Part shown: one piece after another, positions 3,344 through 63,546 of the stretch
How the letters are laid out: every line of letters begins with the position of its first letter
Numbering within the stretch: the stretch's first letter is position 1
Origin: a virus
Taxonomy: Duplodnaviria; Caudoviricetes
IMG/VR virus record: IMGVR_UViG_3300020122_000568
Location: 1-63,546 of that record
Length of the DNA: 63,546 nucleotides
Strand: one strand, 5' to 3'
Position numbers and translations under genes: made by a program
Notes under the pieces: generated by a model
Database searches by the model: none
Told to the model about the DNA's origin: nothing
What the model saw: the letters and a program-made list of their open reading frames with translations, nothing else

Positions 3344-3491
3344 GCGCGCTCGATCGCGACGAGCACGGCGCCATCACCGGCCCGTATCGCCACAAGCGCG
3401 CGCTCGCATACGAGGACAAGGTCGTGCTGGTCATGGTTGTCGCGGGCGTGCTGACGGCGGGCGCGCTGGCGTGGCTCGTGAGGCTGTTCTA

Positions 3492-4403: not shown

Positions 4404-4405
4404 AC

Positions 4406-8170: not shown

Positions 8171-8539
8171 GTGATGATCGAGATCGCCGCCAACGTCATG
8201 TACGACGAAGATGAACTCGTCGCCAAGCTCGGCCTGAGCCGTTCGTGGCTGCGGCGCACCGTCGGTGGCTTGCTGGCAGGGCGTAAGCGTGTGTACCGTG
8301 GCGCAGACCTCTTGGCGAGGATGCGCCCGTGCAGCACAAGAAACGCTTCACCGTCAGCGTCGAGCGGCGTGGGAAGTATTGGCAGGCCCGGGTCTACTTC
8401 GAGGGCGAAGGCGGGAACAGCCGGCGATTCTCTACCGGCGTCGCGATCGGAGAGCGGTGGCGGGAGTCTAAAAGAGCGGCTGAGAAGGTGGCGGACGAGC
8501 ACGCCGCGAAGCTCGCCAATCAAACATCGGTCGCAGTAG
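8171..8539 (+). CDS. Putative excisionase / HTH protein overlapping integrase
   Basis: YDEDELVAKLGLSRSWLRR winged-HTH-like N-terminus directly upstream of int. Confidence 0.55.
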   Translation: MMIEIAANVMYDEDELVAKLGLSRSWLRRTVGGLLAGRKRVYRGADLLARMRPCSTRNASPSASSGVGSIGRPGSTSRAKAGTAGDSLPASRSESGGGSLKERLRRWRTSTPRSSPIKHRSQ

Positions 8540-22552: not shown

Positions 22553-23782
22553 CTATTGGGTGAGCGGCCCGGCGACCGACAAGAAGATCGACGAGGAATT
22601 GACGATGTAACGCGGGATCGTCGTCACACCGCTGTAGTTGCTGATGCCGCCGCTGATGCCGAGCCGGCGCACGTCCGCAGTGGGCGAGGTCAAGATCGCC
22701 GTCTGCACCTCGGGGTGCGCTTGCTCGCACGAGCCGATGATCTGGTTGAGGAAGTATTCGTCCGCCTGCTGGCGATTGGTGAAGTAGGAGATGATATTGG
22801 CGACGGCCTGGGCGGTGATGGCCGCGGTGTTGTAGTTCACGAGGGGCCGCTGCATGTAGATGGTCCCAGTGATCGTGACGACGGTGATCGCATACGGCAA
22901 CACGAACACCGGAACACCGAAGGCGCGCCAGTTCTCGAGCGCGGAGGCGACGGCCGTTTGCAATGCCGGCGGCAGGTTGTAGTTGACGTCTCCGCAGAAG
23001 AGCTTGACCGTGCCGTCGCCGGGCTCGATCGGAACGATGCTGGTAGCCAGCACGCCCGGGACCTGCGCCGCGCCGACGATGAGCGCGCGCTTGGTGCCGC
23101 GCTTCTTCGAGTCGTCGAACGCCGCTTGCTTGAGCCGCGCGCGCAGTTGGTCGTTGGTCTCCTGGTCAGCACCGCCGCCAATCGGAGGCGGCGCGGCGAG
23201 AGCGCCGAGCACTGAATCGCCCGCAGTCGGCGTGTAGAGCGCCCACGTGGTGTCGCCAAGCGTGTCTTGAATCGTGGTGATCGGATTCTGCCCAGCCGCC
23301 GTGAAGGCGAGGTTGCCGATCACGCCCGCTTGCGTGCATGCCACAGGCACCGCGACCTTGAGCGTGTTCTGCGCGACCGAAACGTCCTGCGTGGCGGTGA
23401 AGTTGACGGCCGCGGTCGAGGGCGGAACCGCCGGCGCAACGAATCGAGTGCCGTTCGGAATCACCGTGGCGGCCGTGCCGCTGCGCTGCAGGTAGACCGT
23501 CGTGGTGGCTGCTGCGGCAGGGAGGCGTCCGTCGTTGAAGAGGTCGGCGGCGATGATGTCGAGGTCGTCGTCGACGGCTGAGACGAGCGAACGGGCGGCG
23601 ACGCGATCGGCGATGTGAGCGGTGTTGCGCGCAGCGAGCGCGGCGAAGGCCGAGAGCGCAAGATCCCAGCGAGAGCCAGGATGGAGGTTGACGGCTCCCG
23701 TGCCCTGGGGGTCTTGAAGCGAACGGATCTTCGCCTGACCGATCTGAACGAGCTCGGTCGGGGTCGGCAGTTCGTTGGCCAT
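22553..23782 (-). CDS. Baseplate J-like protein
   Basis: DLDIIA..RLPAAAAT..IPNGT..GGADQETNDQLRAR. Confidence 0.9.
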   Translation of the reverse strand: MANELPTPTELVQIGQAKIRSLQDPQGTGAVNLHPGSRWDLALSAFAALAARNTAHIADRVAARSLVSAVDDDLDIIAADLFNDGRLPAAAATTTVYLQRSGTAATVIPNGTRFVAPAVPPSTAAVNFTATQDVSVAQNTLKVAVPVACTQAGVIGNLAFTAAGQNPITTIQDTLGDTTWALYTPTAGDSVLGALAAPPPIGGGADQETNDQLRARLKQAAFDDSKKRGTKRALIVGAAQVPGVLATSIVPIEPGDGTVKLFCGDVNYNLPPALQTAVASALENWRAFGVPVFVLPYAITVVTITGTIYMQRPLVNYNTAAITAQAVANIISYFTNRQQADEYFLNQIIGSCEQAHPEVQTAILTSPTADVRRLGISGGISNYSGVTTIPRYIVNSSSIFLSVAGPLTQ

Positions 23783-27771: not shown

Positions 27772-29406
27772 CTAGTAGTGGACGGTCGAGAACTTGTTAC
27801 GCGCGCTCTGCGTCGGGAACGACACGGCGTCGCTCACGGCGTCCTTGATGAACTTGTACGTGTCGATGCGAACGCGGTCGGCGTCGCGGGCGTCGTTGAT
27901 CGTCTGCTGCACCGTCATGTTGACGTTGACGTTCATGTTGCCCTGCTTGGTCGTGTTGGCCATGCCCAGCAGGTAGTCGGCCAGGTTGCTCTTGGAGGGA
28001 CCGCCACCAGCTGCGGTCTTCGCCGGCTTCGGGATCGGCATGTCGCCGAACAGCGAGCCGATCCCGTTGTCCTTGAGGCGCGAGAGAAAGTCGTTCCGCC
28101 CCGACTCCTGGCGCTCGCGGAAGCGGCGGTTGCCTTCCTTCTCGCGGCTCGACATGGCGTCGTCGATGTCTCGGTCGGTCGCGCCCGCCGGGATGATGCC
28201 GGCCTTCTTCATCAACCAGCGCATCGGCTTGACGTCGATCATGTCCTCGAACGACTCGCGCAGTTCGTCCATGTAGGCGATCGCAACGGCGAGCGCAGCG
28301 ACGAGCGCTGAGACGGCGACGACGATGGCTCCGATCGGATTGGCCGCCATGGCGATGTTGAGGCCCCACTGCGCCACCGTGAGCGCTTCGAGCGCGACTG
28401 CCTTGACCCCCGCCAAGATGAGCCACCGGCTCTCCCACACGAATGCGGCGGCGAGCGCGAGGCGGTAGACGCCCCAGGTGGCCGCGACGTAGGCGATGAC
28501 GGCCGAGATGGTGCGGAAGTGATTGGCGAGCCACACGATGACGTCGCCGAGCTTCTTCGCCCACTCCCAGACGAACTTGATGGCCTGGCCGAGACCTTCG
28601 CCGAGGCGCTTGGCGAAGAGGTCGACCGAGACGCGGTTCTTCTCGTACCAGGTGTTGACGTCGATCAGCACGCGCTTCAGCGATTCCAGCATCGGAACGG
28701 CGACGTTGCGCTTGAAGAAGTTGAAGTACGTCTCGGTCGTGGTGCTCACCGAAGTCCACGTGTTGCCGGCGGCAGCGAGCGCATCGTCGAAACCGCGCGT
28801 CGCCTTGGACAGGGCCTCCCAGCGCTTCTCCGGGCTCATCTCGTTGAACGCCTTTGCGTCGGAGATGCCCAAGAGCGGCTTCAGGTGCATGAACAGGGCG
28901 TTGGAAGCGCGTGCGCGGCCCTCCATGAGCATCTGGAGCTCGCGTCCGACCATGGCCGAGTCCATGCGGAAGAGGCGGCCGATGCCTTGGTACTTCAGCG
29001 CGACCTCTTCGATGGCCTTGATCGACTGCCCCGATTCGACGCCGCCGGGGAGCAGGCCGCGGAAGATCTCCTGCACGTCCTCGAACGTGCCTGGCACCTT
29101 GGCCGAGCGCATCATGAGGTCGTCGAGCAGTTCGCGGCTCATCATGAGCGCGCGATTGAATCCGTCGGGCCCCTTCGTGCCTGCCGCGCCGAACGCCTGA
29201 AACATGCCGGCGAAGGCGAGCCGCGTGTCCTCGGCCTTCTGACCAGCCACGATCAGACTCTCGCCCACGCCCTTGAAGAACCCCGTGACCATCCCGGCGA
29301 GGTTCGCCAAGTGGTCGAACATCGACGACAGGCGCCAGACGCGGCTTTCCGCGTCGCCGCTGTTCATGCGGTAGTTGAGCGCGATGTTGTAGGTCGTGTC
29401 GGCCAT
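27772..29406 (-). CDS. Tape measure protein (short, 544 aa)
   Basis: Ala-rich helical; LNIAMAANPIGAIVVAVSALVAAL motif. Confidence 0.85.
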   Translation of the reverse strand: MADTTYNIALNYRMNSGDAESRVWRLSSMFDHLANLAGMVTGFFKGVGESLIVAGQKAEDTRLAFAGMFQAFGAAGTKGPDGFNRALMMSRELLDDLMMRSAKVPGTFEDVQEIFRGLLPGGVESGQSIKAIEEVALKYQGIGRLFRMDSAMVGRELQMLMEGRARASNALFMHLKPLLGISDAKAFNEMSPEKRWEALSKATRGFDDALAAAGNTWTSVSTTTETYFNFFKRNVAVPMLESLKRVLIDVNTWYEKNRVSVDLFAKRLGEGLGQAIKFVWEWAKKLGDVIVWLANHFRTISAVIAYVAATWGVYRLALAAAFVWESRWLILAGVKAVALEALTVAQWGLNIAMAANPIGAIVVAVSALVAALAVAIAYMDELRESFEDMIDVKPMRWLMKKAGIIPAGATDRDIDDAMSSREKEGNRRFRERQESGRNDFLSRLKDNGIGSLFGDMPIPKPAKTAAGGGPSKSNLADYLLGMANTTKQGNMNVNVNMTVQQTINDARDADRVRIDTYKFIKDAVSDAVSFPTQSARNKFSTVHY

Positions 29407-35491: not shown

Positions 35492-36640
35492 TTACGTGGT
35501 GAGGATTTCCTGGACGAAGGTCGAGTCCTGGATCGCCCAGCCCTCGTGCGCGAGCCAGACGAACCGAGCGAAGCGGCCGAAGTCGTCGGCCTTGTCGCGC
35601 GCGGCCCACGCGTCGCGGCTCAGCGCCCAGGTGAGCGCCATCGGGGCGATCACGAGGCCCTTGTAGCCCGTGACCGAGCCCGCTCCGAGGTTGGTCGGCA
35701 CCGGCATGCGCTGCGACTCGCAGAGCACGACGTTCTCGATCACGCCGACGTAGCCGGGGAAGAGCACGTTGTAGTTGTTGAAGACGCCGAGCGGCTGATA
35801 GCGGGGGTCGTTCTTCAGCTGCTGGATCTGGTGCGGGTGGAACACGCCCACGTATCGGCCGTCGAAGTCCAATCCTGGCACGTAGCGCGTCTTCAACTGC
35901 TCGACGGCCTTGAACACGAGGTCCAGCGTCATCGGCTCGTTCGCCGATCCGGTGAGCGCCGCGTTGCTCGCTGCATCGGCGCCGCGCGTGATGCCGTTCG
36001 CGTTCGACTCGGCGGCGGCGACGAGGTAGTTGATCAGCGTGTCGTCGAGGAACTTGTAGCGGTCGCGGCGAAGTTGATTGCCGATGTCGGCGAGCAGGTC
36101 GTGCGCGGCGCGCGCCTGCGTGAACAGCGTCATCGACAGCGGCACGACGTTGGCGTTCGGGTCGCCGGGGCCGCCGTACTCGTAGATGCTCACCTCGATC
36201 TGATCGCGGGTGATCGCCTGCGTGTTGCCGGCGAGCTTCGTCTGCGGCGCGATGCGGCGGTTGGCCAGCGTGGTCGCGCCGTCGGTGAAGCGCGGACGGT
36301 TGACCTTGATCGTGGTGCCGGGCTGTGCGGCCGTCGGCTCCATCGTGATCATGCCGGGGAAGGTGAAGTTCTGACCGGCCAGCGTGAGCGGGCCGCCCAT
36401 GCCTCCCGACATCGCCCAGACGGTGTTCGCGAGCGCGCCGACGTCGGCGACGCGGCCTTCCTGGAGTTGCAGCATCGCCGCGTTGTAGGCGTCGTTGCTG
36501 GCGAACCCTGCGGCCTGAGCCGCCGCGTACGCCCAGCGAGCGAAAACGAACTGCGGATCGGGGACGACGAGCAGGCGCTGCGTGAGGCGGTCGGTGAATT
36601 CTGCGGAGAGGATGACATCAGAAGACGGAACGTCGGCCAT
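35492..36640 (-). CDS. Major capsid protein
   Basis: PGTTIKVNR, YVGVFHPHQIQQL, VGVIENV, DDFGR; strong RBS AAGGAGG; after scaffold. Confidence 0.85.
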   Translation of the reverse strand: MADVPSSDVILSAEFTDRLTQRLLVVPDPQFVFARWAYAAAQAAGFASNDAYNAAMLQLQEGRVADVGALANTVWAMSGGMGGPLTLAGQNFTFPGMITMEPTAAQPGTTIKVNRPRFTDGATTLANRRIAPQTKLAGNTQAITRDQIEVSIYEYGGPGDPNANVVPLSMTLFTQARAAHDLLADIGNQLRRDRYKFLDDTLINYLVAAAESNANGITRGADAASNAALTGSANEPMTLDLVFKAVEQLKTRYVPGLDFDGRYVGVFHPHQIQQLKNDPRYQPLGVFNNYNVLFPGYVGVIENVVLCESQRMPVPTNLGAGSVTGYKGLVIAPMALTWALSRDAWAARDKADDFGRFARFVWLAHEGWAIQDSTFVQEILTT

Positions 36641-39144: not shown

Positions 39145-40836
39145 CTACGGCTTGGGCGCGCCGACTCGCTGCGCCTGCTTGGGCTTGGCGAGGCGATTGG
39201 TAGCCGGCGTCGGCGGCTTACCGTTCGGTGGCGTTCCGGTCTGGTCTCCTGATTGCGCGACTGCGGCCATTGCCTGCGCGGTCTGGACTGCGTCCTGCTG
39301 CGCCTGCTGCTTCTCGTCGTCGATCGTATCGAGCTCCGCGCCCACGTCGGTGATCGAGAACAAGTCGGCCACCAACTGCGTGGCCTTCTGACGCGAGACC
39401 AGTCCTTCCTTCTTCGCCGCCGCGGCCGATTGCACGAGCGTGCTCACCTCGTCCGACTGGGGCGAGAAGAAGCGACCCCACTGCAGGCGAACCGGGAACT
39501 CCAGCCATGGGCCGCCGAGTTGCGCCGTCATCATGAGCTTGACGGCCTTCGACACGCCTTGGATGAACACGTCTTCGCCACGCGTCTTGACGGTGCAGAT
39601 CATCCGCAGCGCGAGGTTGATGACGTCGCCGAAAGCGTCGTCGCCGAGGTCCTTTCGCAGGTCCGAGGCCAGCGCGATCATCGGCGCGTGCAGATACTCA
39701 AGCACGACGCCCGAGATGTTGCGTCCCTTGACGGCGTCAGCGTCGGCAATGACGATGCGAACCGCTTCGCAGAAGCGCTTGTGCAGGTCGGAGGTCAATT
39801 CCGATGCCGACACTGCTCCCGAGCCTTCGGCTTCGATCAACTTGATGTCGGCGGGCTTGTCCTTGCCCTCATCCTCGATATCCCAGATCTTGGCGGTCGA
39901 CTTCTGCAGCGCCTGCCGATCTCCGACCGGAACGTTCTTGCGAACCCACTGCGGATCGAGGTTGTACTCGACGCTGCGGCCGCGGAGGCTGTAGACGTAA
40001 TTCACTCGGTCGAGCAGTCGGTAGAGCGCAGGATCGATGACCGGTACGCCGTCAATCGCATCGCTCGACATCGGCAGCGTGCGCACCCAGACGACGGGAC
40101 AATACCCGAGCGCGTGATTCACCGATTGGCTGGAGTCGACGGTCCAGATCGGCGGCTGTCCGGTGACCCTGACCGGCTGATAGACGGTGTCGTTCTGCTC
40201 GTCGATGACGCGCCGGAACCAATAGTCGACGCTGCGCACCTGCGCCGTGCCTGGGATCTGCTCCTCGCGCGGGAACTTGTAGCAGATGTCGAGCGACTGC
40301 AGCTTCGACGGGTCATCGGGTGACCACGACGGGGTGCAATGCTTGCCCGGCTCGACCGAGTAGCGCAGTTTGCCGGCTTTGAAGCACAGCAGCACCGCGC
40401 AACTGCTCGTTACGAGCGCCTTGCGGCTGTATTCTCCGACCGCGCGATCGAGCTTCGCGGAGCGCACGACCTCCTGCACGAACGTCGTCAGCGCGGTCGC
40501 GTCGTCATCCCACAGGCGTGGTCCGATCTCATCCGCGTCATCGTCGTCATCGGTGCGGGTCGCTGCGATCGTGACCCTCGGGAAGCGCGCACCGCCCCAA
40601 ACGAAGGAGTGGATCGTCTCGATCGCCGTCTTGAAGAGCGGGATGATCTCGCGCGGCTTGCGACGATTGAGGGCGACCTCAGTTTCCCAACTCGCCTTGC
40701 CTTCGTACTGGAGAGAGTCGTAATAGAGCTCGGCGGTGTTGGCGCAGCTGAAACGCGCCGTCTGTCCTCCGACGATCGCCGGCTGTTGGACGAGGTCACG
40801 CGGCGGCGTGTCGAACTTCGGGGACGTCTGAGGCAT
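39145..40836 (-). CDS. Portal protein
   Basis: 563 aa between terminase and head genes; HALGYCPVVWV, ISGVVLEYL. Confidence 0.8.
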   Translation of the reverse strand: MPQTSPKFDTPPRDLVQQPAIVGGQTARFSCANTAELYYDSLQYEGKASWETEVALNRRKPREIIPLFKTAIETIHSFVWGGARFPRVTIAATRTDDDDDADEIGPRLWDDDATALTTFVQEVVRSAKLDRAVGEYSRKALVTSSCAVLLCFKAGKLRYSVEPGKHCTPSWSPDDPSKLQSLDICYKFPREEQIPGTAQVRSVDYWFRRVIDEQNDTVYQPVRVTGQPPIWTVDSSQSVNHALGYCPVVWVRTLPMSSDAIDGVPVIDPALYRLLDRVNYVYSLRGRSVEYNLDPQWVRKNVPVGDRQALQKSTAKIWDIEDEGKDKPADIKLIEAEGSGAVSASELTSDLHKRFCEAVRIVIADADAVKGRNISGVVLEYLHAPMIALASDLRKDLGDDAFGDVINLALRMICTVKTRGEDVFIQGVSKAVKLMMTAQLGGPWLEFPVRLQWGRFFSPQSDEVSTLVQSAAAAKKEGLVSRQKATQLVADLFSITDVGAELDTIDDEKQQAQQDAVQTAQAMAAVAQSGDQTGTPPNGKPPTPATNRLAKPKQAQRVGAPKP

Positions 40837-42496: not shown

Positions 42497-43039
42497 TCAC
42501 GCTGCTCCGCCCATCGGACGCATCGAGGCGTGCGCCCACTTCTTGGCCTTCGCCTCGATCAACTGGCGCTTGATCGGCTTGGCGTGATCGATCAGTAGCT
42601 TTCCGTCGAGGTGGTCGACCTCATGCAGCACTGCGCGCGCCAGCATACCGTCGCAGTCCATGCGCGCGCCGCGGCCGTTGAGTTGCGTGAAGCGAATGGC
42701 GCATGTCGTCGCTCGCGTGACCTCGACGCGCACGCCGGGGAAGGACAGACAGCCCTCGGCCTCGGTGGCCATCTCGTCCCCCAGCGCCTCGACGAAGGGG
42801 TTGATGAGCGCGATCGGCTGATGCTTGCCATCTTCTCCGCCGACGACGCGCGGGCTGAGCACGAAGACGCGGACGTTGGCGCCGATCTGCGGGCCAGCGA
42901 CGCCGAAGGCTCGAAAGGCGCGCAGCGTATCTTCGAGGTCGATGATCAGAGCGAACGTTTTCTCGTCGAGGGTCGTCACGTCGGTGGACGCTTCACGCAG
43001 ACTCGAAGCGGGATAGAGGACAATCGGCTGAACGGCCAT
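42497..43039 (-). CDS. def: Peptide deformylase
   Basis: GVAGPQIG, EGCLS, HEVDHLDG motifs; TGATG coupling to terL. Confidence 0.93.
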   Translation of the reverse strand: MAVQPIVLYPASSLREASTDVTTLDEKTFALIIDLEDTLRAFRAFGVAGPQIGANVRVFVLSPRVVGGEDGKHQPIALINPFVEALGDEMATEAEGCLSFPGVRVEVTRATTCAIRFTQLNGRGARMDCDGMLARAVLHEVDHLDGKLLIDHAKPIKRQLIEAKAKKWAHASMRPMGGAA

Positions 43040-44568
43040 CAGCGAAATCCCTCCAAGTTCGTATTGCGTTTCTCTTCCTCGGCGCGCTCCCAATACTCAT
43101 CAGACGTCGGCGCATCAAACGTCGCTGAAGTGCCCATCGTCGGGCGGTTGAAGACGGCGAGCGCGAGCGCATCGGCGCGGTCCGGCGAGCGTCCCAGTCG
43201 CTCCCTGAGGTCGTCCTTGCTCTCGACCTTGATGCGGCCGCGGAGGTCGAAACCGTAGATGGGCGCCACGAGCTCGGCGGCGAGCTTTTCGTCGCGCGGG
43301 ATAGCGCCGCCGGCCTTGAGCCAGTCGCGCAGCGCGAACCAAAGCTGGTCGCGGAGCCGAGCGTACGTGTCTCCGGTGGACGCCTCACCGGCGTTGACCT
43401 CGACGACTTCGAGTTCGCGGTCGTCCTTGAGCACATCGACCGCGCCGCCGCCAACGCCTGCACCGTCGACCTTCACCAGCGGTCGCTCAGCAGGAACGTC
43501 CATGCCGTCGCCGGCGATGCGTAGGTCGCGCGCGATGCGCTTCACTTCGCCGCACAGGCGCAACGTATCAGCTCCGCGCAAGATGGTCGGCGCCATCGCC
43601 TTGTGACCACGCCGCGGCCAGATGACGGATTCGTCATCGCCGAAGCGCGCCACGTCGACGCCGATTTCGAGTCGGCCATCTTCGTGGGTGTCGTCGTAGC
43701 GAGCGAGTGCTGCCTCGACCAGCGCGAGACCGATGACGGCATTCTCAGCCTGCGATGGGAATTCGCCGAGCACGTGAACCTGCCAGAACGGCGATTCCTC
43801 GCCCCACTCCTGGCGCATCTCCTCGATCCACTCGCGCGTGGCGAGCCCGGGAATGACGTCTCTCCCTTCGATGTAGTTCGGTGTCTCCATCGACGAGACG
43901 TGGAACAGCTTCCAAAACTGCCGCTTGGTGGTGAACGCGTCGTAGAAGGTGCCGCTGGTCTTGGTCGGGTTGCCGAGCACGAGAAGCGAAGCGCCGCCGG
44001 CGCGGTTGCCTTCGATGGCCGCGAAGATTTCCTCTTCGACGCCCGAGCCTTCGTCGACGATGAACAAGACGTCGGCACCCGAGATGCCGGCCATGCGCTC
44101 GGGCTCGTTCGTCGAGAACCCCATCATCTCGCGACCGTCGAGGTAGACCAAGCCGCTTGCGGGAGACTCGTGGATCTCGCCGCCGAGCACCTTCTCGCCG
44201 CCAGCCTCGCGATAGATGCGACGCGCCTCGCGCCAGAGGATGATCTCGACCTGGCGGGCGGTGGGCGCCGTCATGATCACGCGCCCGCGCTTTTTCGTGC
44301 CCACCCACCACAGCCCGACGGCGGCGGCAAGCGTGGACTTTCCGATCTTGCGACCTGAGCGCACGGCCACGCGCTTGTGCACGGCGATGGCGCGCATGAT
44401 CTCGGCCTGCCGCGCCCACGGCGTGAGGTTCAGGGCCTTTTGGACGTATTCGACCGGATCATTGCCGTCTCGCGGTGCCTGGACGGCTTGGTCGTGCTCG
44501 GCGGCACGGCGTTCTCCCTGCTTGGCGGCGCGAAGGCTACCCCTCAACTCCTTCGCTACCGAGGTCAT
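43039..44568 (-). CDS. terL: Terminase large subunit
   Basis: SGRKIGKST Walker A, FIVDEG Walker B, GNPT, GVDVARFGDD, SPDRADAL. Confidence 0.95.
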   Translation of the reverse strand: MTSVAKELRGSLRAAKQGERRAAEHDQAVQAPRDGNDPVEYVQKALNLTPWARQAEIMRAIAVHKRVAVRSGRKIGKSTLAAAVGLWWVGTKKRGRVIMTAPTARQVEIILWREARRIYREAGGEKVLGGEIHESPASGLVYLDGREMMGFSTNEPERMAGISGADVLFIVDEGSGVEEEIFAAIEGNRAGGASLLVLGNPTKTSGTFYDAFTTKRQFWKLFHVSSMETPNYIEGRDVIPGLATREWIEEMRQEWGEESPFWQVHVLGEFPSQAENAVIGLALVEAALARYDDTHEDGRLEIGVDVARFGDDESVIWPRRGHKAMAPTILRGADTLRLCGEVKRIARDLRIAGDGMDVPAERPLVKVDGAGVGGGAVDVLKDDRELEVVEVNAGEASTGDTYARLRDQLWFALRDWLKAGGAIPRDEKLAAELVAPIYGFDLRGRIKVESKDDLRERLGRSPDRADALALAVFNRPTMGTSATFDAPTSDEYWERAEEEKRNTNLEGFR

Positions 44569-44983
44569 CAGCGAGAATGGCGAGGACACGTTCGAACTCC
44601 TCCGCGCTCAGGCCCGCCTTCAGCCGCACCATCGCGTCGCGCAACTCGCTGCGGACCTTGGCCTCGACGCGCACGGTGTGGCCGTAGCGCTCGGGGAAGC
44701 GGCGCTCGAGCAGCCAGGCGGCGGCGGTCCAGTGGCGCGGCTTCTGGGAAGCGCTGCGGATCTTCTCCAGCGCCTCCGTCTCCACCTGCGCGTTGGCAAG
44801 CTCGAGGGCGTCGAAGAACTCGGCGTAGGGCTGCTCGCCGGCGCGGCCGCGCTTGATCCAGTGGTAGACGGTGGACTCGTCGAGGTTGCAGGCGGCCGCG
44901 GCCGTCTTCAACCAGTGGCCTTCCGCCACCAGCTTGCAGAACTTGTCGCGCAGCGTCGGCGTGAGGTCGGACGGGCGACCCAT
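44537..44983 (-). CDS. terS: Terminase small subunit
   Basis: MGRPSDLT HTH, AAAWLLERRFPERYG; upstream of terL. Confidence 0.8.
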   Translation of the reverse strand: MGRPSDLTPTLRDKFCKLVAEGHWLKTAAAACNLDESTVYHWIKRGRAGEQPYAEFFDALELANAQVETEALEKIRSASQKPRHWTAAAWLLERRFPERYGHTVRVEAKVRSELRDAMVRLKAGLSAEEFERVLAILADDLGSEGVEG

Positions 44984-47811: not shown

Positions 47812-48486
47812 TCAGCGGCCCACGCGCGCCAGCAGCTTTCGCACCGTCGTCGCCTGCCACGCGCCGCCGCGCTTGGTGCGCAGCCCTTCCGCCGTGAGCG
47901 TGCGGCCGATGGCGCTCAGGTTCACGCCCGCCGCCGCGAGTTCCCGCGCGCGCGCCAGCACGCGCTGTTCGGCCTCATCCTCGACGAACACGTCGCCCTG
48001 CCGACGCCATCCGAGCGGCACCGCGCCGAGCCGCGCGCCGCGCGCGCGCTTGTGCCGCAGCGCCTCGCGCGTGCGCTCGCCGATGGCCTCGCGCTCCCAC
48101 TGCGCCAGCACGCCGAGCATGTTCAGCACCATGCGCCCGGCGGCGGTCGCCGTGTCGATGGCCTCACCGACCGACAGCAGCGCGCCGCGGCCCTCGGTGA
48201 AGTAGCGCTCGACGAGCTGCGCGAGGTCTCCTACGCTGCGCGTCAGCCGGTCAAGCTTGGCGACCAGCACGCCGTCGGCGCCGCCGGCGCGCAGCGCCTT
48301 CAACGCGCGCCGCAGCCCCGGGCGCCGCAGCGACTTGGCGCTGATGCCCGCATCTTCCTCGACCGCGACGAGCTCGTGGCCGTACAACTTGGCGTAGGCC
48401 TCGCCGCGGGCGCGCTGCGCCGCGAGCGAGACGCCTTCGGTTGCCTGTTCCTCAGTGCTGACGCGGCAATAAAGCACCAACCGCAT
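47812..48486 (-). CDS. Serine recombinase (resolvase/invertase type)
   Basis: YCRVSTEEQ, DAGISA..RPGL, KLDRLTRS, ERE.IGERT. Confidence 0.92.
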   Translation of the reverse strand: MRLVLYCRVSTEEQATEGVSLAAQRARGEAYAKLYGHELVAVEEDAGISAKSLRRPGLRRALKALRAGGADGVLVAKLDRLTRSVGDLAQLVERYFTEGRGALLSVGEAIDTATAAGRMVLNMLGVLAQWEREAIGERTREALRHKRARGARLGAVPLGWRRQGDVFVEDEAEQRVLARARELAAAGVNLSAIGRTLTAEGLRTKRGGAWQATTVRKLLARVGR

Positions 48487-48890
48487 GCCGCGCACCCCGG
48501 GTTGTACTTGACGGGCGTCTACTTCAAGCCCTCTTGAACTTGGTCCGCGCGGGCATGCTCACCGACGACAGAACGGCAGGTCCAACTGCTCGCGCGGCGC
48601 ACCGATCACAGCGGCCACGCGCCCATCGCGCCGGCGCACGAGCCGCACCGCGCGCACCGGCACCCGGTGCTCGGCGGCGACCACCTCGCGGATGAGCGCC
48701 CGCTTGCGCGCGCCCGAGCGCTGCCACGCCGCCGCAAGCTCGTAATCGAGCAGGTCGACCATGGTGCGCCTCTTCTTGGGTCGTAAGCGCCGGCGGCGGC
48801 GAATACACGCCTGGCACAGTCGAAAGTGCCCGATCCATTACCGCGAACCTAGGAGAGAAAGGTTCTGATGATGGCGGAAGATGCAGAAGG

Positions 48891-49261: not shown

Positions 49262-49795
49262 ATGTCGCTTCGAAGCTCGACCGGGACTCAACTCGCGCGC
49301 GCCGAACTCTACGCATTCGACGACAAGGGCAACCGCATCGCCACCGCTGGCCGCGGCGCGAACGTCATGCCGGTCAAGGAGACGCGCACGTACGTCGAGC
49401 CGGCGACCGTCAGCGAGAGCCAAGACGAACGCCGCGCGCGCGAGGGCCGTCAGGCACGTATCCTCGCCTCGCTCACCGATGACGAGGCGACGGTGCTCCA
49501 CTATCAGGGCAAGCTCGTGTGCCGGATCCAGAAGCCTCGCGAGGTGGCCGGCGGCGACGTCGCGGAATATTTGAACGCGGGCTACGTGCTCAAGCCGGGG
49601 TCGGTGCGATTGCTCGAGCGCGATGGGTTGCCGCCGGTCGAAGTGGCGACCGTGATCGGCTTCGAAGAGGTGCAGGTCGAGCGGCTGAGCTACGACGAGA
49701 TCGCCGAGCACTTGGGCGTGAGCATCCACATGGTCAACAAGCTTGTGGTGTCGGCGAATAAGAAGTTGCGCGCGCTGCGATCGGTCATTTTTTGA
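49262..49795 (+). CDS. Protein with C-terminal sigma-70 region 4-like HTH
   Basis: RBS AGGAGG; LSYDEIAEHLGVSIHMVNKL..ANKKLR. Confidence 0.75.
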   Translation: MSLRSSTGTQLARAELYAFDDKGNRIATAGRGANVMPVKETRTYVEPATVSESQDERRAREGRQARILASLTDDEATVLHYQGKLVCRIQKPREVAGGDVAEYLNAGYVLKPGSVRLLERDGLPPVEVATVIGFEEVQVERLSYDEIAEHLGVSIHMVNKLVVSANKKLRALRSVIF

Positions 49796-50252
49796 TCGAG
49801 CCCAACTGCGGACGCGGCTGCGGAGACGGCACCCCCACTATCGACTTTCGTTCGCTGCGGAACTCTTCATAGGAGCGCAGTCGTCCTTCCAGAAATCGCT
49901 GGTCGTAGTCGGCTGCGGCGCGCTCGCGATCGCTGCCAAGACTGGCTCTGTCGACATGCTTGTTCGCGTGGTAGGCCCGCGCCTCCTGACGATGACCGCG
50001 TAACATGTGGTCATCTTCGATTTCGCGTTGCTCAACATCGGTCAGCAGGTGGATCACATTCAATCGACGTTTCGTGTGGATTCCTCTCCTGTAGAGATAT
50101 CGGCGCAAGCGAGGCTCGATCCTCTTCTTGTCGATCCCGGATGTCTCCACCAGCCATTCGTCACTGACGTCATCACCACGCTTCAATCGATCGACGTGCG
50201 GCTTCAGTCTCACCCATGCCGCTTCAATTTCGTATTTCGATAGAATCGCCAT
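49785..50252 (-). CDS. Hypothetical protein downstream of GGY-NN array B
   Basis: RBS GGAG; co-oriented with RAMP-like gene. Confidence 0.7.
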   Translation of the reverse strand: MAILSKYEIEAAWVRLKPHVDRLKRGDDVSDEWLVETSGIDKKRIEPRLRRYLYRRGIHTKRRLNVIHLLTDVEQREIEDDHMLRGHRQEARAYHANKHVDRASLGSDRERAAADYDQRFLEGRLRSYEEFRSERKSIVGVPSPQPRPQLGSIKK

Positions 50253-50280
50253 TGATTATCTCCATGTTTTTTTCCATCTC

Positions 50281-50395
50281 CCCCCATTGGGGGCCATGCC
50301 TTGCCATGCCACGCCTAGCCCCGCCTCGCCCGACCAGGCCTTGCCTGACCACGCCAAGCCGAGCCTTGCCCTGCCGAGCCCATCCAGACCTTGCC
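50281..50395 (-). ncRNA. GGY-NN pentamer array B (20 units) + terminal hairpin; putative guide RNA
   Basis: GGCAA GGTCT GGATG GGCTC ... GGCAT then GG CCCCC-AAT-GGGGG. Confidence 0.85.
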
Positions 50396-50399
50396 CGGA

Positions 50400-51038
50400 C
50401 TATTTCGTCCTCTTCACAGTCGCCGTAAACATTCCGTACATTCCCGGCTTCTTCGGCGACGATGGGCGCCAATCGCCGACGCCGGCCTTTCCCGCCCCGT
50501 ACCACAGCGTCTCAATGCGATCCTCTCCACTGAGCAGATCCTCATTGTCGGTCTCGAACATGGTCGTCGCCGACCAGTGATCAAACCGCGGACGTACGCG
50601 CGTATGAGACTTCCCATTGATGTTGCACGGCTTGACGAACAATGCGAATCCCAGCGCGCGCACTGCTTGGCAATGCTCCGCGAAGCCGCCGTCGATACGC
50701 TCGACGTCGGCGCGCGGAATGGTCTTGCCGTTCACGAACAGAGGTACGTAGAAGTCACTGAAGAACATCGACTGCGAAGCGGACTTCAATGTCTTCTTGT
50801 TTCCGATGCTCACGCCGCTGCCCGCCTTCAGCAGAGCAGCCAGAAAATTTTCTGCTGGGATGCAGACACACTCGTCGTTGACGTAGAGATACGACTTCCA
50901 CGTGTCAGCCGGGTGCCGGTCATCGCCGGCCTTTCCTCCCTTGCGTCCACGAGCTGCTATTGCGTCGCGCGCCTCGAGATTGTTGTGGTGCATGAGCAAT
51001 GGCGTCGTGCCTTCGATCGTGACTTCGAATCGCTCCAT
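50400..51038 (-). CDS. Solo RAMP/Cas7-like RNA-binding protein (Vipr-like)
   Basis: FEVTIEGTTPLLMH, IPAENFLAALLKAG, RVRPRF..W, Gly-rich loop GAGKAGVGDWRP..GMYGMF. Confidence 0.8.
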   Translation of the reverse strand: MERFEVTIEGTTPLLMHHNNLEARDAIAARGRKGGKAGDDRHPADTWKSYLYVNDECVCIPAENFLAALLKAGSGVSIGNKKTLKSASQSMFFSDFYVPLFVNGKTIPRADVERIDGGFAEHCQAVRALGFALFVKPCNINGKSHTRVRPRFDHWSATTMFETDNEDLLSGEDRIETLWYGAGKAGVGDWRPSSPKKPGMYGMFTATVKRTK

Positions 51039-51150
51039 CGTTTGCTTACCTCTCGCGATGTGCCTCTCTCGGCTCTCTCGGAGTATTCCGAACTGGCCGA
51101 ACTGAACACCATCGCGCGTCGGAATGGGTTCCGGCGCGCTGTGCTGTCAT

Positions 51151-51230
51151 GCTCCATTGGAGCCCTCGCCATGCCGCACCCCGCCCGGCCTTACCGCACC
51201 TCGCCTGGCCGCGCCCAGCCGAGCCCAGCC
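51151..51230 (-). ncRNA. GGY-NN pentamer array A (13 units) + terminal hairpin; putative guide RNA
   Basis: GGCTG GGCTC GGCTG GGCGC ... GGCGA then GG GCTCC-AAT-GGAGC. Confidence 0.85.
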
Positions 51231-51234
51231 GCAT

Positions 51235-51489
51235 TCACCTACAAATCGACGCCCCCGCACAAGTCCACTCGTCGCCGCCATCGCTGCGCACGCACCCGAG
51301 CGACGTCAACTTGTCGTCAACCGCTTGGTCGATCGCAGCCTGCACCGCCGCCGACTGAAGCTTGCACTTGTCGACGAGATCCTGCTCCAGCGTCGCGAGC
51401 TTCGCGTCCACGATTCGCTCGCACTGCTGCTGCAGATCGGGCGGCACGCACCCGCACGCCAGCACCGCGCACAAGGTCAGCACGCGCAT
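51235..51489 (-). CDS. Small lipoprotein
   Basis: MRVLTLCAVLACGC lipobox. Confidence 0.55.
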   Translation of the reverse strand: MRVLTLCAVLACGCVPPDLQQQCERIVDAKLATLEQDLVDKCKLQSAAVQAAIDQAVDDKLTSLGCVRSDGGDEWTCAGASICR

Positions 51490-51855
51490 CGGCGATACCC
51501 CGCGACCTGCACGAGCGGTATCGTCGCCTCGCACGGGTCAGCCTCCACGCCGCGCGCATCCAGTCGTTCGGCCCAGCGGTGAGCCTGCGATCGCGACATC
51601 AGCTTCGACCGCGCGACGGTGCCGTCGGGAAAGCGCACGAGGATGTACCAGCGGTCGTCGGCGCTCACGTTGCGCCGCCGTCCTTGGTGGTGTTGCAGAT
51701 GATCTCGACGATGATCGCGGCATCGGCGAGTGCATGAACAATTGCCGCTCGGCGCGTATCACAGGTCGCGGTGGCCTTGCTGTCGCCGCATCTCGCGACG
51801 GCGCGCCAGCGGTCACCCTGTGGCTCGACAGCGAGTGTGATAGCGAATTCGTGTC

Positions 51856-53965: not shown

Positions 53966-54826
<861 letters not shown>

Positions 54827-56325: not shown

Positions 56326-57690
56326 TCACCGCTGCCATGACTGCTCCTGTTCCGTAGCGCTGAGGTCGACGAAGCGCCCAAATCGCGGTTGCCACCCGAG
56401 GCGCGTGGTCCCGATGGGTCCGTTTCGCTGCTTGGCGATGATGACTTCGCAGATGCCCTTGTCCTGCGTCTTCGGTTCGTAAACTTCGTCGCGGTACAAG
56501 AACGCGATGACATCGGCGTCCTGCTCGATTTGTCCGCTGTCACGCAGGTCGCTCAAGATGGGACGCTTGTTCGATCTCTCCTCGCACTTACGGTTCAACT
56601 GCGCCAACGCGACGACGGCTCCGTTGATCTCCTTCGCGAGCGCCTTGAGCCCGCGCGACACGGCGGCGATCTCCCGCTCGCGGTCAAGCTCGCCTCGGCG
56701 CGACTGCGCACTGACGAGCTGCAGGTAATCGACGATCACGACGCACGGACTCCCGGACGCTCCTTCGGTCAAGCGCCACCGACGAGCGCGCGAGCGGATG
56801 CCGATGATGTCAAGCGTTCCCTCGTCGTCGACCCACAGTGGGCGGCGCGCGAGAACATCGCCGGTGCGGCTGATCGCCTTCCAGTCGTCTCCGGTCAGGT
56901 GTCCAGAGCGCATGCTCTGCGCGTCGACGCGCCCCTCGCACGCGAGCATCCTCTCGACGAGAGACAGATTCGACATCTCCAGGCTGAATACGAGCCCCGG
57001 AAAGCCGCGCGCGGACTGCGCCACCGCCATATTGCCGGCGAAGGCGCTCTTGCCCATCGACGGCCTCGCCGCGATGATCCAAAGCTCTCCGGGGTGCAGC
57101 CCTGTCGTCGTGCGGTCGAGTTCGGAGAACGCCGTCGTGATTCCCAGCGCCGCGGGGTTGTGGCGGTTCTCGTATCGGCGCTCGATATCGCGAATGGACT
57201 CATTCAGCAGCGGATTGACATGCCGGGCCTGTTGCTTCACGACGTCGCCGCGCTGAAGGTCGAGTAGTGCCGCGTCCACCTGCGAGAAGAATTCGTCGTC
57301 GCCGGTGTCAGCGTCGTACGCGAGAACGCGCAACTCGTCCGTCAACTCGGCGTATCGGCGCCGGCGCGCCTTCGAGCGGACGATTCGCGCGTGGTAGGCG
57401 TGATTCTCGACGGTGACGACCTTGCACATCAGGTCGGTCAGGTATTCATCGCCGCCGGCGGCATTCAGGCGGTCGAAGGTTCCATCGCCTCGCATCCGAT
57501 TCGCGACGCTGACGGCGTCGATCGGCTGTGAGTCGCTATCGAGCGCCACGATCGCCTCGAAGATTACGCGCAGCGCCGGGTGGCAAAACTCCGGCGGCGT
57601 CACCTCAGCGATCACCTCGGGCAGAATGCGCGGGTGAACCAAGATGCCACCGACGAGTTGAGCCTCGGACTCAATAGCACTCGGCGTCAT
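56326..57690 (-). CDS. dnaB: Replicative DNA helicase DnaB
   Basis: AARPSMGKS, FSLEM, IVDYLQL, QLNR, DLRDSGQIEQDAD, KQRNGP. Confidence 0.96.
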   Translation of the reverse strand: MTPSAIESEAQLVGGILVHPRILPEVIAEVTPPEFCHPALRVIFEAIVALDSDSQPIDAVSVANRMRGDGTFDRLNAAGGDEYLTDLMCKVVTVENHAYHARIVRSKARRRRYAELTDELRVLAYDADTGDDEFFSQVDAALLDLQRGDVVKQQARHVNPLLNESIRDIERRYENRHNPAALGITTAFSELDRTTTGLHPGELWIIAARPSMGKSAFAGNMAVAQSARGFPGLVFSLEMSNLSLVERMLACEGRVDAQSMRSGHLTGDDWKAISRTGDVLARRPLWVDDEGTLDIIGIRSRARRWRLTEGASGSPCVVIVDYLQLVSAQSRRGELDREREIAAVSRGLKALAKEINGAVVALAQLNRKCEERSNKRPILSDLRDSGQIEQDADVIAFLYRDEVYEPKTQDKGICEVIIAKQRNGPIGTTRLGWQPRFGRFVDLSATEQEQSWQR

Positions 57691-63271: not shown

Positions 63272-63517
63272 ATGGGCAGTGAGGTATTGGCGACCAAGCG
63301 CGCGCTCGACCTGAACGGCTGCGAGATCTATCCCGAAGATCGCGTGCGCCTCGCGGGCACGCAGATGGAGGGCGCGGTCGCCGACGTGCGCGGCGATCTT
63401 GTTCTCGTCCACTGGTGGAACGGCCCCGACGACGTGGTGGGCGAGTTGGCGTGCAAGCTGATCGTGGTGAATCAGCGCTACCGCGACGCCGACCTGGACG
63501 AGGTCGACCGCTCGTGA
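63272..63517 (+). CDS. Hypothetical protein
   Basis: RBS GGAGG; runs into the terminal overlap. Confidence 0.6.
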   Translation: MGSEVLATKRALDLNGCEIYPEDRVRLAGTQMEGAVADVRGDLVLVHWWNGPDDVVGELACKLIVVNQRYRDADLDEVDRS

Positions 63518-63546
63518 GCCAGGAATTGGCCATCGTATGGTGCGCG
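63420..63546. repeat. Terminal direct repeat (copy of 1-127)
   Basis: Identical sequence. Confidence 0.97.

What the first reader, a model, noticed from the sequence alone, without database searches (positions are those of the whole stretch)
49785..51235. Candidate RNA-guided system: solo Cas7/RAMP-like protein flanked by GGY-NN pentamer arrays (VIPR-like)
Seen (minus strand): array A (13 units) - hairpin - structured leader - 212-aa RAMP-like gene - array B (20 units) - hairpin - 155-aa unknown gene. Each array starts within 5 nt of an upstream stop codon and has an invariant GG(C/T) triplet (one GGA) alternating with a free dinucleotide. There are no cas1/cas2, nuclease or repeat-spacer CRISPR genes. 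Established: Cas7-family RAMPs polymerise along guide RNA with a fixed nucleotide step. Inference: one subunit binds each GGY and displays the NN bases, so the dinucleotides form a non-contiguous programmable code, probably used to silence competing phages or host genes. This matches my recollection of recently reported phage VIPR systems, which should be verified.
Basis: partly seen in the sequence, partly recalled or inferred. Interest (0 to 1): 0.96.

Follow-up and report, generated by a model that had tools for sequence, protein, structure and literature searches.

The report
VIPR guide-RNA system in a phage
A complete temperate phage genome carries a VIPR system (a small Cas7-like protein, two guide RNAs built of GGY-NN pentamers, and a small helper protein), a phage weapon first described in 2026 preprints, so this is a clear new example of a known kind rather than a new kind.

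Summary
On the minus strand lie 13 GGYNN units (51230-51166) and 20 units (50395-50296, one GGA). Each starts 4 nt after a stop codon and ends in a 5-bp hairpin. They flank a 212-aa gene, which is followed by a 155-aa gene. Simulated sequence never gave more than 5 units in a row.

The 212-aa protein is a Vipr homolog. A family profile hits the solved "SUSP1 Vipr protein" at E 8.9e-23 over its full length. The model has a RAMP fold. The five published GGY-reading residues are conserved.

In 75 of 80 viral loci with homologs, such arrays lie on the gene strand; none lie on the other strand. The 155-aa gene belongs to a family next to vipr in 113 of 162 loci and is remotely like the vap1-position gene of a SUSP1-like phage.

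This is a new member of a known kind. Its own features are a simple CAAUG-loop hairpin tail with strong covariation and a long 20-unit guide. No target was found. Transcription could not be tested.

The parts
51166..51230 (-). vrRNA-A guide tract: 13 GGYNN units with NN = TG TC TG GC CA GA GC AA CG GG GC AT GA, giving 26 specifying bases and a 38-bp gapped footprint under the 1-nt skip rule
   Evidence: It starts 4 nt after the stop of ORF 51235-51534.
51151..51163 (-). Tail hairpin of vrRNA-A: GCUCC-AAU-GGAGC, directly after the terminal GG
   Evidence: fold. (covariation over 55 distinct tails).
51039..51150 (-). Structured leader between tail A and the vipr start codon, with two further hairpins. 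It may belong to the vrRNA-A tail or to the vipr 5' UTR; this is undecided.
   Evidence: 51039-51170 folds at -51.2 kcal/mol, z -3.04.
50400..51038 (-). vipr: 212-aa Vipr (ancestral RAMP / Cas7-like) protein
   Evidence: GGY-reading residues H17, R149, D189, W190 and R191 are conserved.
50296..50395 (-). vrRNA-B guide tract: 20 units (third is GGA), 40 specifying bases, a 59-bp gapped footprint
   Evidence: It starts 4 nt after the vipr stop codon.
50281..50293 (-). Tail hairpin of vrRNA-B: CCCCC-AAU-GGGGG, followed by an A-rich stretch and the GGAG ribosome-binding site of the next gene
49785..50252 (-). vap-like accessory gene: 155 aa, with a winged-helix-like N-terminal half and a long antiparallel helical hairpin
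51235..51534 (-). Upstream ORF (99 aa as listed; possibly starts at the internal Met before a signal-peptide-like LTLCAVLACGC stretch). Its stop codon abuts vrRNA-A. It is context, not shown to belong to the system.
   Evidence: no family.

Best explanation
This is a VIPR (Viral Interference Programmable Repeat) locus in a complete, temperate, tailed-phage genome. Its order is vrRNA-A, vipr, vrRNA-B, vap.

By homology with the characterised SUSP1 and P. fulva systems, the likely mechanism is as follows.
1. The two GGYNN tracts are transcribed with the flanking genes (inferred from the 4-nt stop-to-array gaps).
2. One Vipr protomer binds each pentamer. It sequesters GGY through H17, R149, D189, W190 and R191 and exposes the NN dinucleotides.
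3. The filament, capped at its 3' end by the short hairpin tail, reads double-stranded DNA with the 'two paired, one skipped' rule. That gives 26 and 40 specifying bases.
4. Binding blocks transcription of the bound gene, helped by the small winged-helix-like Vap protein.
5. The probable targets are competing phages, prophages or satellites in the unknown host.

Shown here: the anatomy, the homology, the fold, conservation of the RNA-reading residues, the linkage of arrays and vap with vipr across loci, and covariation in the tail hairpin.

Inferred: transcription and processing, RNP formation, DNA targeting, and the biological target.
For: (1) Arrays are real and non-random. Runs of 13 and 20 units compare with a maximum of 5 in 200 simulations, and they are the only such runs in the window.

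(2) Homology. PHROG phrog_4652 matches at E 6.2e-15. A profile of 45 homologs hits PDB chain 36pp_D, 'SUSP1 Vipr protein', at E 8.9e-23 over profile 1-214 and chain 1-190 of 202; the next hit is at E 0.0032. hhalign against the vipr of Felixounavirus ESCO50 gives probability 99.4%, E 6.9e-22.

(3) Fold. The AlphaFold2 model has pLDDT 92.4 and pTM 0.87. Foldseek against the PDB gives 57 matches at E <= 0.001, topped by chains of type III-A Csm and type VII effector complexes (best E 3.2e-6, TMq 0.47).

(4) Residues. Preprint 720927 names SUSP1 residues that read G1, G2 and Y3: H17, R138, D177, W178 and R179. They align to H17, R149, D189, W190 and R191 here. R149, D189, W190 and R191 are invariant in all 45 aligned homologs. 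H17 is invariant in the 20 closer ones.

(5) Linkage. 75 of 80 IMG/VR loci with a homolog have at least one array (>= 8 units, >= 80% GGY) on the gene strand, and 0 of 80 on the other strand (241 arrays against 0).

(6) Stop-to-array spacing. In 44 of 113 loci with a downstream array, the array starts within 10 nt of the vipr stop; in 68 of 113 it starts within 30 nt.

(7) Tail. Over 55 distinct tails chosen by loop motif only, the 5-bp stem is paired in 86.2% of cells against 63.1% in shuffles. There are 58 double-change cells against 14.1 expected, and 0 of 500 shuffles reach either value. Slid registers give 29-44% paired.

(8) Vap. The 155-aa protein has a 66%-identical homolog on a 2,950-base contig, the same length as the contig of the 86%-identical Vipr. 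Its family has 163 representatives at E <= 1e-3. Family hits occur in 113 of 162 vipr loci, always on the vipr strand: 102 downstream, 15 upstream, 2 overlapping. hhalign against the gene in the vap1 position of ESCO50 gives probability 90.1%, E 1.6e-6.

(9) Viral context. PHROG hits include integrase, RecE/RecT, large terminase, portal, major head, tape measure, baseplate and DnaB. The record is a single-contig virus record with a 127-nt direct terminal repeat.

(10) No self-target. The best matches under the 1-nt skip rule are 17 of 26 and 21 of 40. The preprint reports the same for its systems.
Against: - No natural target was found, so the biological role here is unsupported by direct evidence.
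- No sigma-70-like promoter or intrinsic terminator was found on the minus strand near the arrays. One promoter-like site was found on the plus strand, against 0.8 expected.
- The tail is a plain hairpin, not the pseudoknot tail of the SUSP1 clade, so 3' capping may work differently.
- The single-sequence match to SUSP1 Vipr is weak (E 0.094); the homology rests on profiles.
- The Vap-to-Vap1 link is remote: probability 19% with a 5-sequence profile and 90% with 68 sequences.
- The winged-helix call for Vap rests on weak Foldseek matches (E 0.05-0.2).
- Residues that contact DNA in SUSP1 Vipr (K33, R39, K82, K88) were not mapped.
Confidence: 0.88

Rival explanations
1. It is a genuine VIPR locus, but it does not act against competing phages. 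Its guides would regulate the host or the phage's own life cycle, for example by silencing host genes or controlling lysogeny, or it would act from the prophage as superinfection immunity only.
For: The phage is temperate: it has a tyrosine integrase at 8329-9450 and a serine recombinase at 47812-48495. No phage target turned up in IMG/VR with five exact 9-unit windows. The preprint notes targets in lysis-lysogeny regulators for the P. fulva prophage system.
Against: No site in the phage's own genome reaches 80% NN match; the best are 65% and 53%. The host genome is unknown, so host targeting could not be tested. In the characterised clades most targets are other mobile elements (18 of 20 and 48 of 66, as reported in preprint 720920).
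Confidence: 0.15
2. The locus is a decaying or orphaned VIPR remnant. The arrays and genes would be present but no longer functional.
For: No target was found and no expression data exist. One unit in array B is GGA instead of GGY.
Against: Both ORFs are intact. All mapped RNA-reading residues are conserved. 32 of 33 units keep GGY. Both tails keep a perfect 5-bp stem. The genome looks complete. The preprint mentions frequent internal degeneracy in working vrRNAs.
Confidence: 0.05
3. The pentamer tracts are not guide RNAs. They would be translated low-complexity peptides (for example the 62-aa ORF 51046-51234, which reads through array A) or DNA-level elements such as G-quadruplex-forming GG runs.
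For: An ATG overlapping the upstream stop opens a 62-aa ORF through array A. Gene callers have extended a homolog, P0003, through its array. GG runs spaced by 3 nt could in principle form two-tetrad quadruplexes (my inference).
Against: A 5-nt period cannot keep a reading frame. Arrays in relatives have 8 to 38 units with no preference for multiples of 3. Conservation is of GGY at the nucleotide level with free NN. The arrays are strictly on the vipr strand (241 against 0) and end in a covarying RNA hairpin. Homologous tracts are experimentally shown to be Vipr-bound RNAs in SUSP1 and P. fulva (preprint 720920).
Confidence: 0.02
4. It is a minimal or degenerate CRISPR-Cas remnant: a solo Cas7 of a class 1 system using crRNA-like guides.
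For: The best structural matches are class 1 backbone subunits.
Against: There is no repeat-spacer array and no cas gene among the 14 neighbours scanned. No Pfam RAMP family is hit. The sequence-level relative is Vipr, not any Cas7.
Confidence: 0.01

Closest known systems
VIPR systems, in particular the type II systems of Escherichia phage SUSP1 and a Pseudomonas fulva prophage (bioRxiv 10.64898/2026.04.26.720920, .720927 and 10.64898/2026.10.15.759431)
   Same: - A Vipr protein of about 200 aa, homologous over its full length, with the same GGY-reading residues.
- Guide tracts of GGY/NN pentamers on the gene strand, both upstream and downstream of vipr.
- A structured 3' tail.
- A small accessory gene next to vipr, remotely similar to the gene in the vap1 position.
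- Phage-borne, with no cas genes among the neighbours scanned and no self-target.
   Different: - About 21% identity to the SUSP1-type protein.
- The tail is a 5-bp hairpin with a C-AAU-G loop, not the roughly 40-60-nt pseudoknot tail described for the SUSP1 clade.
- One guide has 20 units. The preprints give 9-16 for the SUSP1 and P. fulva clades (720920) and 10-12 for typical arrays (759431).
- The second guide lies between vipr and vap. In the SUSP1-like phage ESCO50 the order is 2 guides, vipr, vap1, guide.
- The genome is high in G+C (65%) and temperate.
- The VIPR type (I-VII) cannot be assigned here, because the classification data are in supplements that were closed.
Class 1 CRISPR-Cas backbone subunits (Cas7 family: Csm3/Csm5 of type III-A, Cas7 of type VII)
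   Same: The RAMP/RRM fold (Foldseek E down to 3.2e-6). By the preprints' account, both polymerise along a guide RNA, with a thumb that flips out bases at a fixed period.
   Different: - The period is 5 nt on the RNA and 3 nt on the target, not 6.
- The guide is a non-contiguous code in a tandem repeat, not a spacer between repeats.
- There is no Cas5, Cas6, Cas10 or large subunit, no adaptation genes and no CRISPR array.
- No Pfam RAMP model is hit.
TIGR-Tas (tandem interspaced guide RNA systems).
   Same: Both are phage-associated, compact, RNA-guided DNA-targeting systems whose guides come from tandem arrays rather than CRISPR repeats.
   Different: As recalled, the protein family is different (a Nop-domain protein, not a RAMP) and the guide logic is different (two spacers reading both DNA strands, not GGY/NN pentamers). 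No similarity between Vipr and Tas proteins was seen here.

Membership tests
VIPR system | Vipr protein homologous to the characterised Vipr (SUSP1) | tested here: met
   The 45-sequence profile hits PDB 36pp_D 'SUSP1 Vipr protein' at E 8.9e-23 over the full length. hhalign to the ESCO50 vipr gives 99.4%, E 6.9e-22. The single sequence gives only E 0.094.
VIPR system | RAMP fold (RRM core with G-loop and thumb) | tested here: met
   The AF2 model has pLDDT 92.4. Foldseek's best hits are type III-A Csm and type VII complex chains, 57 of them at E <= 0.001. Assigning the G-loop to GxGDWRP (186-192) and the thumb to the beta-hairpin 132-152 is my reading, based on the alignment to SUSP1 residues.
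VIPR system | Residues that read G1, G2 and Y3 of the repeat (SUSP1 H17, R138, D177, W178, R179) | tested here: met
   They align to H17, R149, D189, W190 and R191 (residue list from preprint 720927). Four are invariant in 45 of 45 homologs. H17 is invariant in 20 of 20 closer homologs.
VIPR system | vrRNA tracts: at least 4 tandem YNNGG/GGYNN units with free NN, beside vipr on its strand | tested here: met
   13 and 20 units on the vipr strand, against a maximum of 5 by chance. 75 of 80 homolog loci have the same.
VIPR system | Conserved structured 3' tail after the repeat tract | tested here: met
   A 5-bp hairpin follows both tracts. Covariation over 55 tails: 86.2% paired against 63.1%, with 0 of 500 shuffles as high. 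The shape differs from the SUSP1 pseudoknot.
VIPR system | Accessory vap gene in the operon | tested here: met
   The 155-aa gene's family is next to vipr in 113 of 162 loci, always on the same strand. Remote similarity to the ESCO50 gene in the vap1 position: hhalign 90.1%, E 1.6e-6. Identity with 'Vap1' as defined by the authors could not be checked because the supplements were closed.
VIPR system | vrRNAs are expressed and co-purify with Vipr | not testable with these tools
No RNA data were available.
VIPR system | Natural targets that obey the 1-nt skip (xNN) rule, with no self-target | tested here: inconclusive
   No self-target: the best are 17 of 26 and 21 of 40. No target turned up in 5 exact 9-unit scans of IMG/VR; the single hit extended to only 24 of 34. 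None was found in 949,431 bases of held loci; the best were 19 of 26 and 24 of 40. The host genome is unknown.
VIPR system | Minimal locus without cas genes or a CRISPR array, typically on a virus | tested here: met
   The record is a complete phage genome. No cas or named defence family was hit in the 14 neighbours scanned. No repeat-spacer array was found.
Class 1 CRISPR-Cas (Cas7/Csm3 backbone) | CRISPR repeat-spacer array and partner cas genes (Cas5, Cas6, large subunit) | tested here: not met
   None were found in the window region. No Pfam RAMP family matches the protein. Only the fold is shared.

The most novel reading that the evidence does not exclude
This locus and its metagenomic relatives may form a VIPR subtype that the main texts of the preprints do not describe. 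In this reading:
- The guides are carved directly out of mRNA 3' ends, since the arrays start 4 nt after stop codons here and within 10 nt in 44 of 113 relatives.
- The guides are capped by a minimal 5-bp hairpin with a conserved C-(A/U)AU-G loop instead of a pseudoknot.
- They can be much longer: 20 units here, reading a 59-bp gapped site, and up to 38 units in relatives.

That would mean the pseudoknot tail is dispensable for filament capping, and that the filament has no fixed length limit.
Probability: 0.3. Interest if true: 0.55.

Novelty: new member of a known kind. Interest (0 to 1): 0.4.

Why it matters
VIPR is a very recent discovery: RNA-guided recognition of double-stranded DNA through a gapped 2-of-3 code, proposed as older than CRISPR.

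This locus adds a clean, complete example from a high-G+C temperate phage that is far in sequence from the two characterised systems (about 21% identity). All RNA-reading residues are kept, but the tail is different and much simpler, and one guide is longer.

For people engineering or classifying VIPR, it offers three things:
- A compact test case: about 1.45 kb with two guides and two genes.
- A test of whether the tail pseudoknot is needed, and of how guide ends are defined.
- Evidence that the small accessory protein family is conserved across distant branches.

It does not open a new question by itself.

Tried and rejected
Target search.
- Under 0-, 1-, 2- and 3-nt skip rules, the window holds no match beyond chance other than the arrays themselves.
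- Five scans of IMG/VR used exact 9-unit xNN windows: units 1-9, 7-15 and 12-20 of guide B, and units 1-9 and 5-13 of guide A. They gave one hit (L163). It matched only 6 of the next 16 specified bases (24 of 34 in all) on a low-G+C contig, so I rejected it as chance.
- These exact windows would miss targets with scattered mismatches.
- The 165 held loci gave nothing.

Host.
- There is no tRNA in the window.
- The large terminase has only distant relatives, at most 37% identity, among cultured phages of many hosts.
- The host stays unknown.

Close relatives.
- The single-protein scans of genome and metagenome contigs found no relative.
- The alignment-based scans gave relatives of at most 63% identity.
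- The closest homologs (86%, 79%) are known only as proteins.

RNA families. Rfam gave only one sub-threshold chance match.

Promoters and terminators. The consensus scan showed nothing on the minus strand near the arrays.

Vap fold.
- Foldseek gave no match at E <= 0.001. The weak rows were winged-helix regulators.
- VIA-align wide was dominated by the C-terminal helical hairpin (Z at most 8.2) and says nothing specific.
- The Vap profile found nothing meaningful among solved structures (best E 0.03, a designed binder) or in Pfam.

Other points.
- A possible loop-loop pairing between tail hairpin A and the next hairpin was considered and dropped, because tail B has no counterpart.
- Complex prediction was not used: a filament on RNA is outside what it tests, and no protein-protein binding claim is made.
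- The VIPR type could not be assigned. They may already contain this tail class or near-identical loci.


Full report
**What is there**

All features below are read on the minus strand.

- The upstream ORF 51235-51534 ends with TGA. Four bases later a tract of 13 pentamers of the form GG(C/T)NN begins (51230-51166).
- The tract ends in GG and a perfect 5-bp hairpin, GCUCC-AAU-GGAGC (51163-51151).
- A 112-nt leader follows, with two more hairpins. The stretch 51039-51170 folds at -51.2 kcal/mol, z -3.04.
- Next comes a 212-aa ORF (50400-51038).
- Four bases after its TAG a second tract of 20 pentamers begins (50395-50296; the third unit is GGATG). It too ends in GG and a hairpin, CCCCC-AAU-GGGGG (50293-50281).
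- An A-rich stretch, a GGAG ribosome-binding site and a 155-aa ORF (49785-50252) follow.

These two tracts are the only runs of four or more GGYNN units on either strand of the window. In 200 second-order Markov simulations of the window the longest run averaged 3.46 units and never exceeded 5.

**The 212-aa protein**

- Pfam finds nothing. PHROGs gives phrog_4652, of unknown function, at E 6.2e-15.
- The big protein collection holds 82 homologs at E <= 0.001. None carries a Pfam domain or an informative name.
- The single sequence matches only one solved chain, weakly: 36pp_D, 'SUSP1 Vipr protein', at E 0.094 through a GVGDWRP motif.
- A profile of 45 homologs matches the same chain at E 8.9e-23 over profile positions 1-214 and chain residues 1-190 of 202. 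The next hit is at E 0.0032.
- hhalign against the corresponding gene of the SUSP1-like Felixounavirus ESCO50 gives probability 99.4%, E 6.9e-22, with 21% identity.
- The AlphaFold2 model is confident: pLDDT 92.4, pTM 0.87. Its best Foldseek matches in the PDB are chains of type III-A Csm and type VII effector complexes. The best is at E 3.2e-6, and 57 matches reach E <= 0.001. This is a RAMP fold.

The cryo-EM preprint (10.64898/2026.04.26.720927, Results part 1) names the SUSP1 residues that hold the repeat:

- H17 and D177 read G1.
- R138 and W178 read G2.
- R179 contacts Y3.

Through the alignments these correspond to H17, R149, D189, W190 and R191 here. R149, D189, W190 and R191 are invariant in all 45 aligned homologs. 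H17 is invariant in the 20 closer ones. I did not map the DNA-contacting residues (K33, R39, K82, K88).

**Do relatives carry the arrays?**

A scan of IMG/VR with the alignment returned 80 loci, the best of 184 confirmed.

- 75 of 80 have at least one array of >= 8 units with >= 80% GGY on the gene strand. 0 of 80 have one on the other strand (241 arrays against 0).
- Array sizes run from 8 to 38 units.
- The five loci without such an array are L009, L011, L033, L036 and L048. Four of them have shorter or more degenerate runs; L009 has none.
- Over 157 loci with room downstream of vipr, 113 have a downstream array of >= 6 units. In 44 of these it starts within 10 nt of the vipr stop codon, and in 68 within 30 nt.

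The tight stop-to-array junction seen twice in the window is therefore a family trait. It argues for co-transcription with the upstream gene. That step is inference.

**The tail**

Among 486 arrays in the window and 162 loci, the commonest hairpin loop right after the array is AAU. I selected tails by the loop motif alone, [CT][AT]AT[GA] near the array end, without regard to stems. I kept all 53 distinct ones plus the window's two, including five rows that clearly do not form the hairpin.

For the 5-bp stem around the loop:

- 86.2% of 275 cells are standard pairs, against 63.1% in shuffles.
- 58 cells carry changes on both sides, against 14.1 expected.
- The covariation score is 0.623 against 0.196.
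- 0 of 500 shuffles reach any of these three values.
- Sliding the partner by 1-3 columns drops pairing to 29-44%.

Observed stems include GCUCC/GGAGC, CCCCC/GGGGG, GUUCC/GGAAC, GAGCC/GGCUC, GUGCC/GGCAC, GGACC/GGUCC and AUCCC/GGGAU. So the tail of this clade is a short hairpin with a conserved C-(A/U)AU-G top. The SUSP1 clade is instead described as having a tail of about 40-60 nt with a pseudoknot. The sequences are related to one another, so the shuffle test overstates significance somewhat. The slide control does not have that weakness.

**The 155-aa protein**

- It has no Pfam, PHROG or PADLOC family.
- It has one close homolog, at 66% identity, on a 2,950-base contig.
- tblastn found it next to vipr in three held loci: L081, L082 (upstream there) and L117.
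- A profile of these five sequences found 163 representatives at E <= 0.001 among 1.84 billion proteins.
- An HMM of 68 members hits ORFs in 113 of the 162 vipr loci, always on the vipr strand: 102 hits downstream, 15 upstream and 2 overlapping. Of 104 loci with at least 1,500 nt of downstream sequence, 76 have it within 1,500 nt. Three of these loci seeded the profile.
- The model (pLDDT 94.7) has a helix-strand-helix-helix-beta-hairpin half (residues 5-69) and two long antiparallel helices, 72-98 and 108-139.
- Foldseek gives only weak matches (E 0.05-0.2), nearly all to winged-helix regulators: MarR, GntR, ArsR and Z-alpha. The wide VIA search sees only the helical hairpin.
- hhalign of the 68-sequence profile against the gene that follows vipr in phage ESCO50 gives probability 90.1%, E 1.6e-6 over 107 columns. 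The 5-sequence profile had given 19%.

I read it as a Vap-type accessory protein, probably DNA-binding. This fits the preprint's statement that the vap genes of types II, VI and VII encode predicted DNA-binding proteins. The later preprint reports that SUSP1 needs both vipr and vap1 to plaque on a satellite-carrying host.

**Context**

- The window is the whole record: one contig, held as a virus record.
- Its first 127 bases equal its last 127. This is the usual sign of a circular assembly, so the genome is about 63.4 kb and complete.
- PHROG hits: RecE-like and RecT-like genes (3243-5404), tyrosine integrase (8329-9450), baseplate wedge (22553-23782), tape measure (27772-29406), major head (35492-36640), portal (39145-40836), large terminase (43039-44589), serine recombinase (47812-48495) and DnaB-like helicase (56326-57690).
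- The VIPR locus sits at the far end of the minus-strand block that holds the helicase. It converges with a plus-strand gene carrying a sigma-70 region-4 HTH (49262-49795).
- No cas family or named defence system hits the 14 neighbours scanned.

**What is known**

Three preprints describe VIPR.

- bioRxiv 10.64898/2026.04.26.720920. I read the abstract, all of Results, Methods sections 18, 20, 26 and 27, and passages. It reports Vipr (an early-branching RAMP), vrRNAs of alternating GGY/NN, recognition of double-stranded DNA with one skipped base per two paired, transcriptional repression, programmable phage defence, seven types and six vap genes. It also reports that its systems have no self-targets at >= 80% NN match.
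- bioRxiv .720927. I read the outline and Results part 1. It gives the filament structures.
- bioRxiv 10.64898/2026.10.15.759431. I read the abstract, outline and passages. It shows the phage-satellite arms race and solo vrRNAs.

A full-text search for 'vrRNA' found only these three plus one language-model preprint that mentions the word once; the other listed hits are unrelated. Supplements were closed. I could not see the type tables, the tail logos of other types or the locus lists, so I cannot assign a type or say whether this tail class is already catalogued.

**Targets**

I applied the published rule, replacing each GGY by one wildcard and searching both strands.

- The phage itself holds nothing above 17 of 26 (guide A) and 21 of 40 (guide B). 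This agrees with the reported absence of self-targets.
- Five IMG/VR scans with exact 9-unit windows gave one hit, which failed on extension at 24 of 34.
- The 949,431 bases of held loci, which include 162 other vipr loci, gave at best 19 of 26 and 24 of 40. So there is no sign that these guides aim at the related VIPR systems I hold.
- The host is unknown, and the larger collections were no longer available for pattern scans.

The target remains open.

**Verdict**

The locus meets every membership criterion of VIPR that can be tested from sequence:

- a homologous Vipr with a RAMP fold and conserved GGY-reading residues;
- GGY/NN tracts on the gene strand;
- a structured tail;
- a vap-type neighbour;
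- a viral setting without cas genes among the neighbours scanned.

Expression, RNP formation and targeting are inferred from the characterised relatives. It is a new member of a known kind. Its own points of interest are the minimal covarying hairpin tail, the 20-unit guide and the guide placed between vipr and vap. I put the odds that it is a functional VIPR system working as described at about 0.88, and the interest at 0.4.

Noticed in passing
window 1-127 and 63420-63546: The first 127 bases are identical to the last 127. This is the signature of a circular assembly, so the record is probably a complete phage genome of about 63.4 kb.
   Followed up: partly
window 1136-1452 (+), inside ORF 796-2076: A 12-nt tandem repeat of 26.4 copies at 91% match. 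It encodes a run of four-residue repeats of the type QV(R/G/W)(D/A) in a 426-aa protein of unknown function, which has only weak PHROG hits.
   Followed up: no
L165 (Gordonia phage Ecliptus, OP820472.1) 1956-2796; also the hits in Gordonia and Mycobacterium phages: Cultured actinobacteriophages carry VIPR-like loci annotated only as hypothetical proteins. Ecliptus gp19 matches the Vipr profile (hhalign 99.0%, E 3.7e-18; its motif is GVGEWRP). It is followed directly by runs of 4-9 GGYNN units. There were 39 weak tblastn hits in all: 29 Mycobacterium, 7 Gordonia, and one each of Escherichia, Salmonella and Vibrio.
   Followed up: partly
window 53966-54826 (-): A DUF5131 protein (Pfam E 1.2e-72; phrog_2045). 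It matches two PADLOC candidate-defence models, PDC-M41B and PDC-M30B, at E 2e-49 and 1e-47.
   Followed up: no
window 51235-51534 (-): The ORF whose stop abuts vrRNA-A has an internal Met followed by a hydrophobic stretch ending in LACGC. It may be a small lipoprotein or secreted protein. It has no family.
   Followed up: no
window 49262-49795 (+): A 177-aa protein with a sigma-70 region-4-type HTH at its C-terminus (Pfam E 3.7e-6). It converges on the vap-like gene, and the two ORFs overlap by 11 nt at their 3' ends.
   Followed up: no
L066, L067, L075, L077 and others (IMG/VR loci): Many relatives have long trains of arrays separated by only 2-3 nt, so the pentamer register shifts between neighbours. 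They also have single arrays of up to 38 units (L071). This probably corresponds to the 'staggered arrays' mentioned in the preprint.
   Followed up: no
P0003 (homolog) and window ORF 51046-51234 (-): Gene callers and ORF lists read through the pentamer arrays. This gives false N-terminal extensions or Gly/Arg/Ala/Trp-rich ORFs. It is an annotation artefact to expect at VIPR loci.
   Followed up: partly
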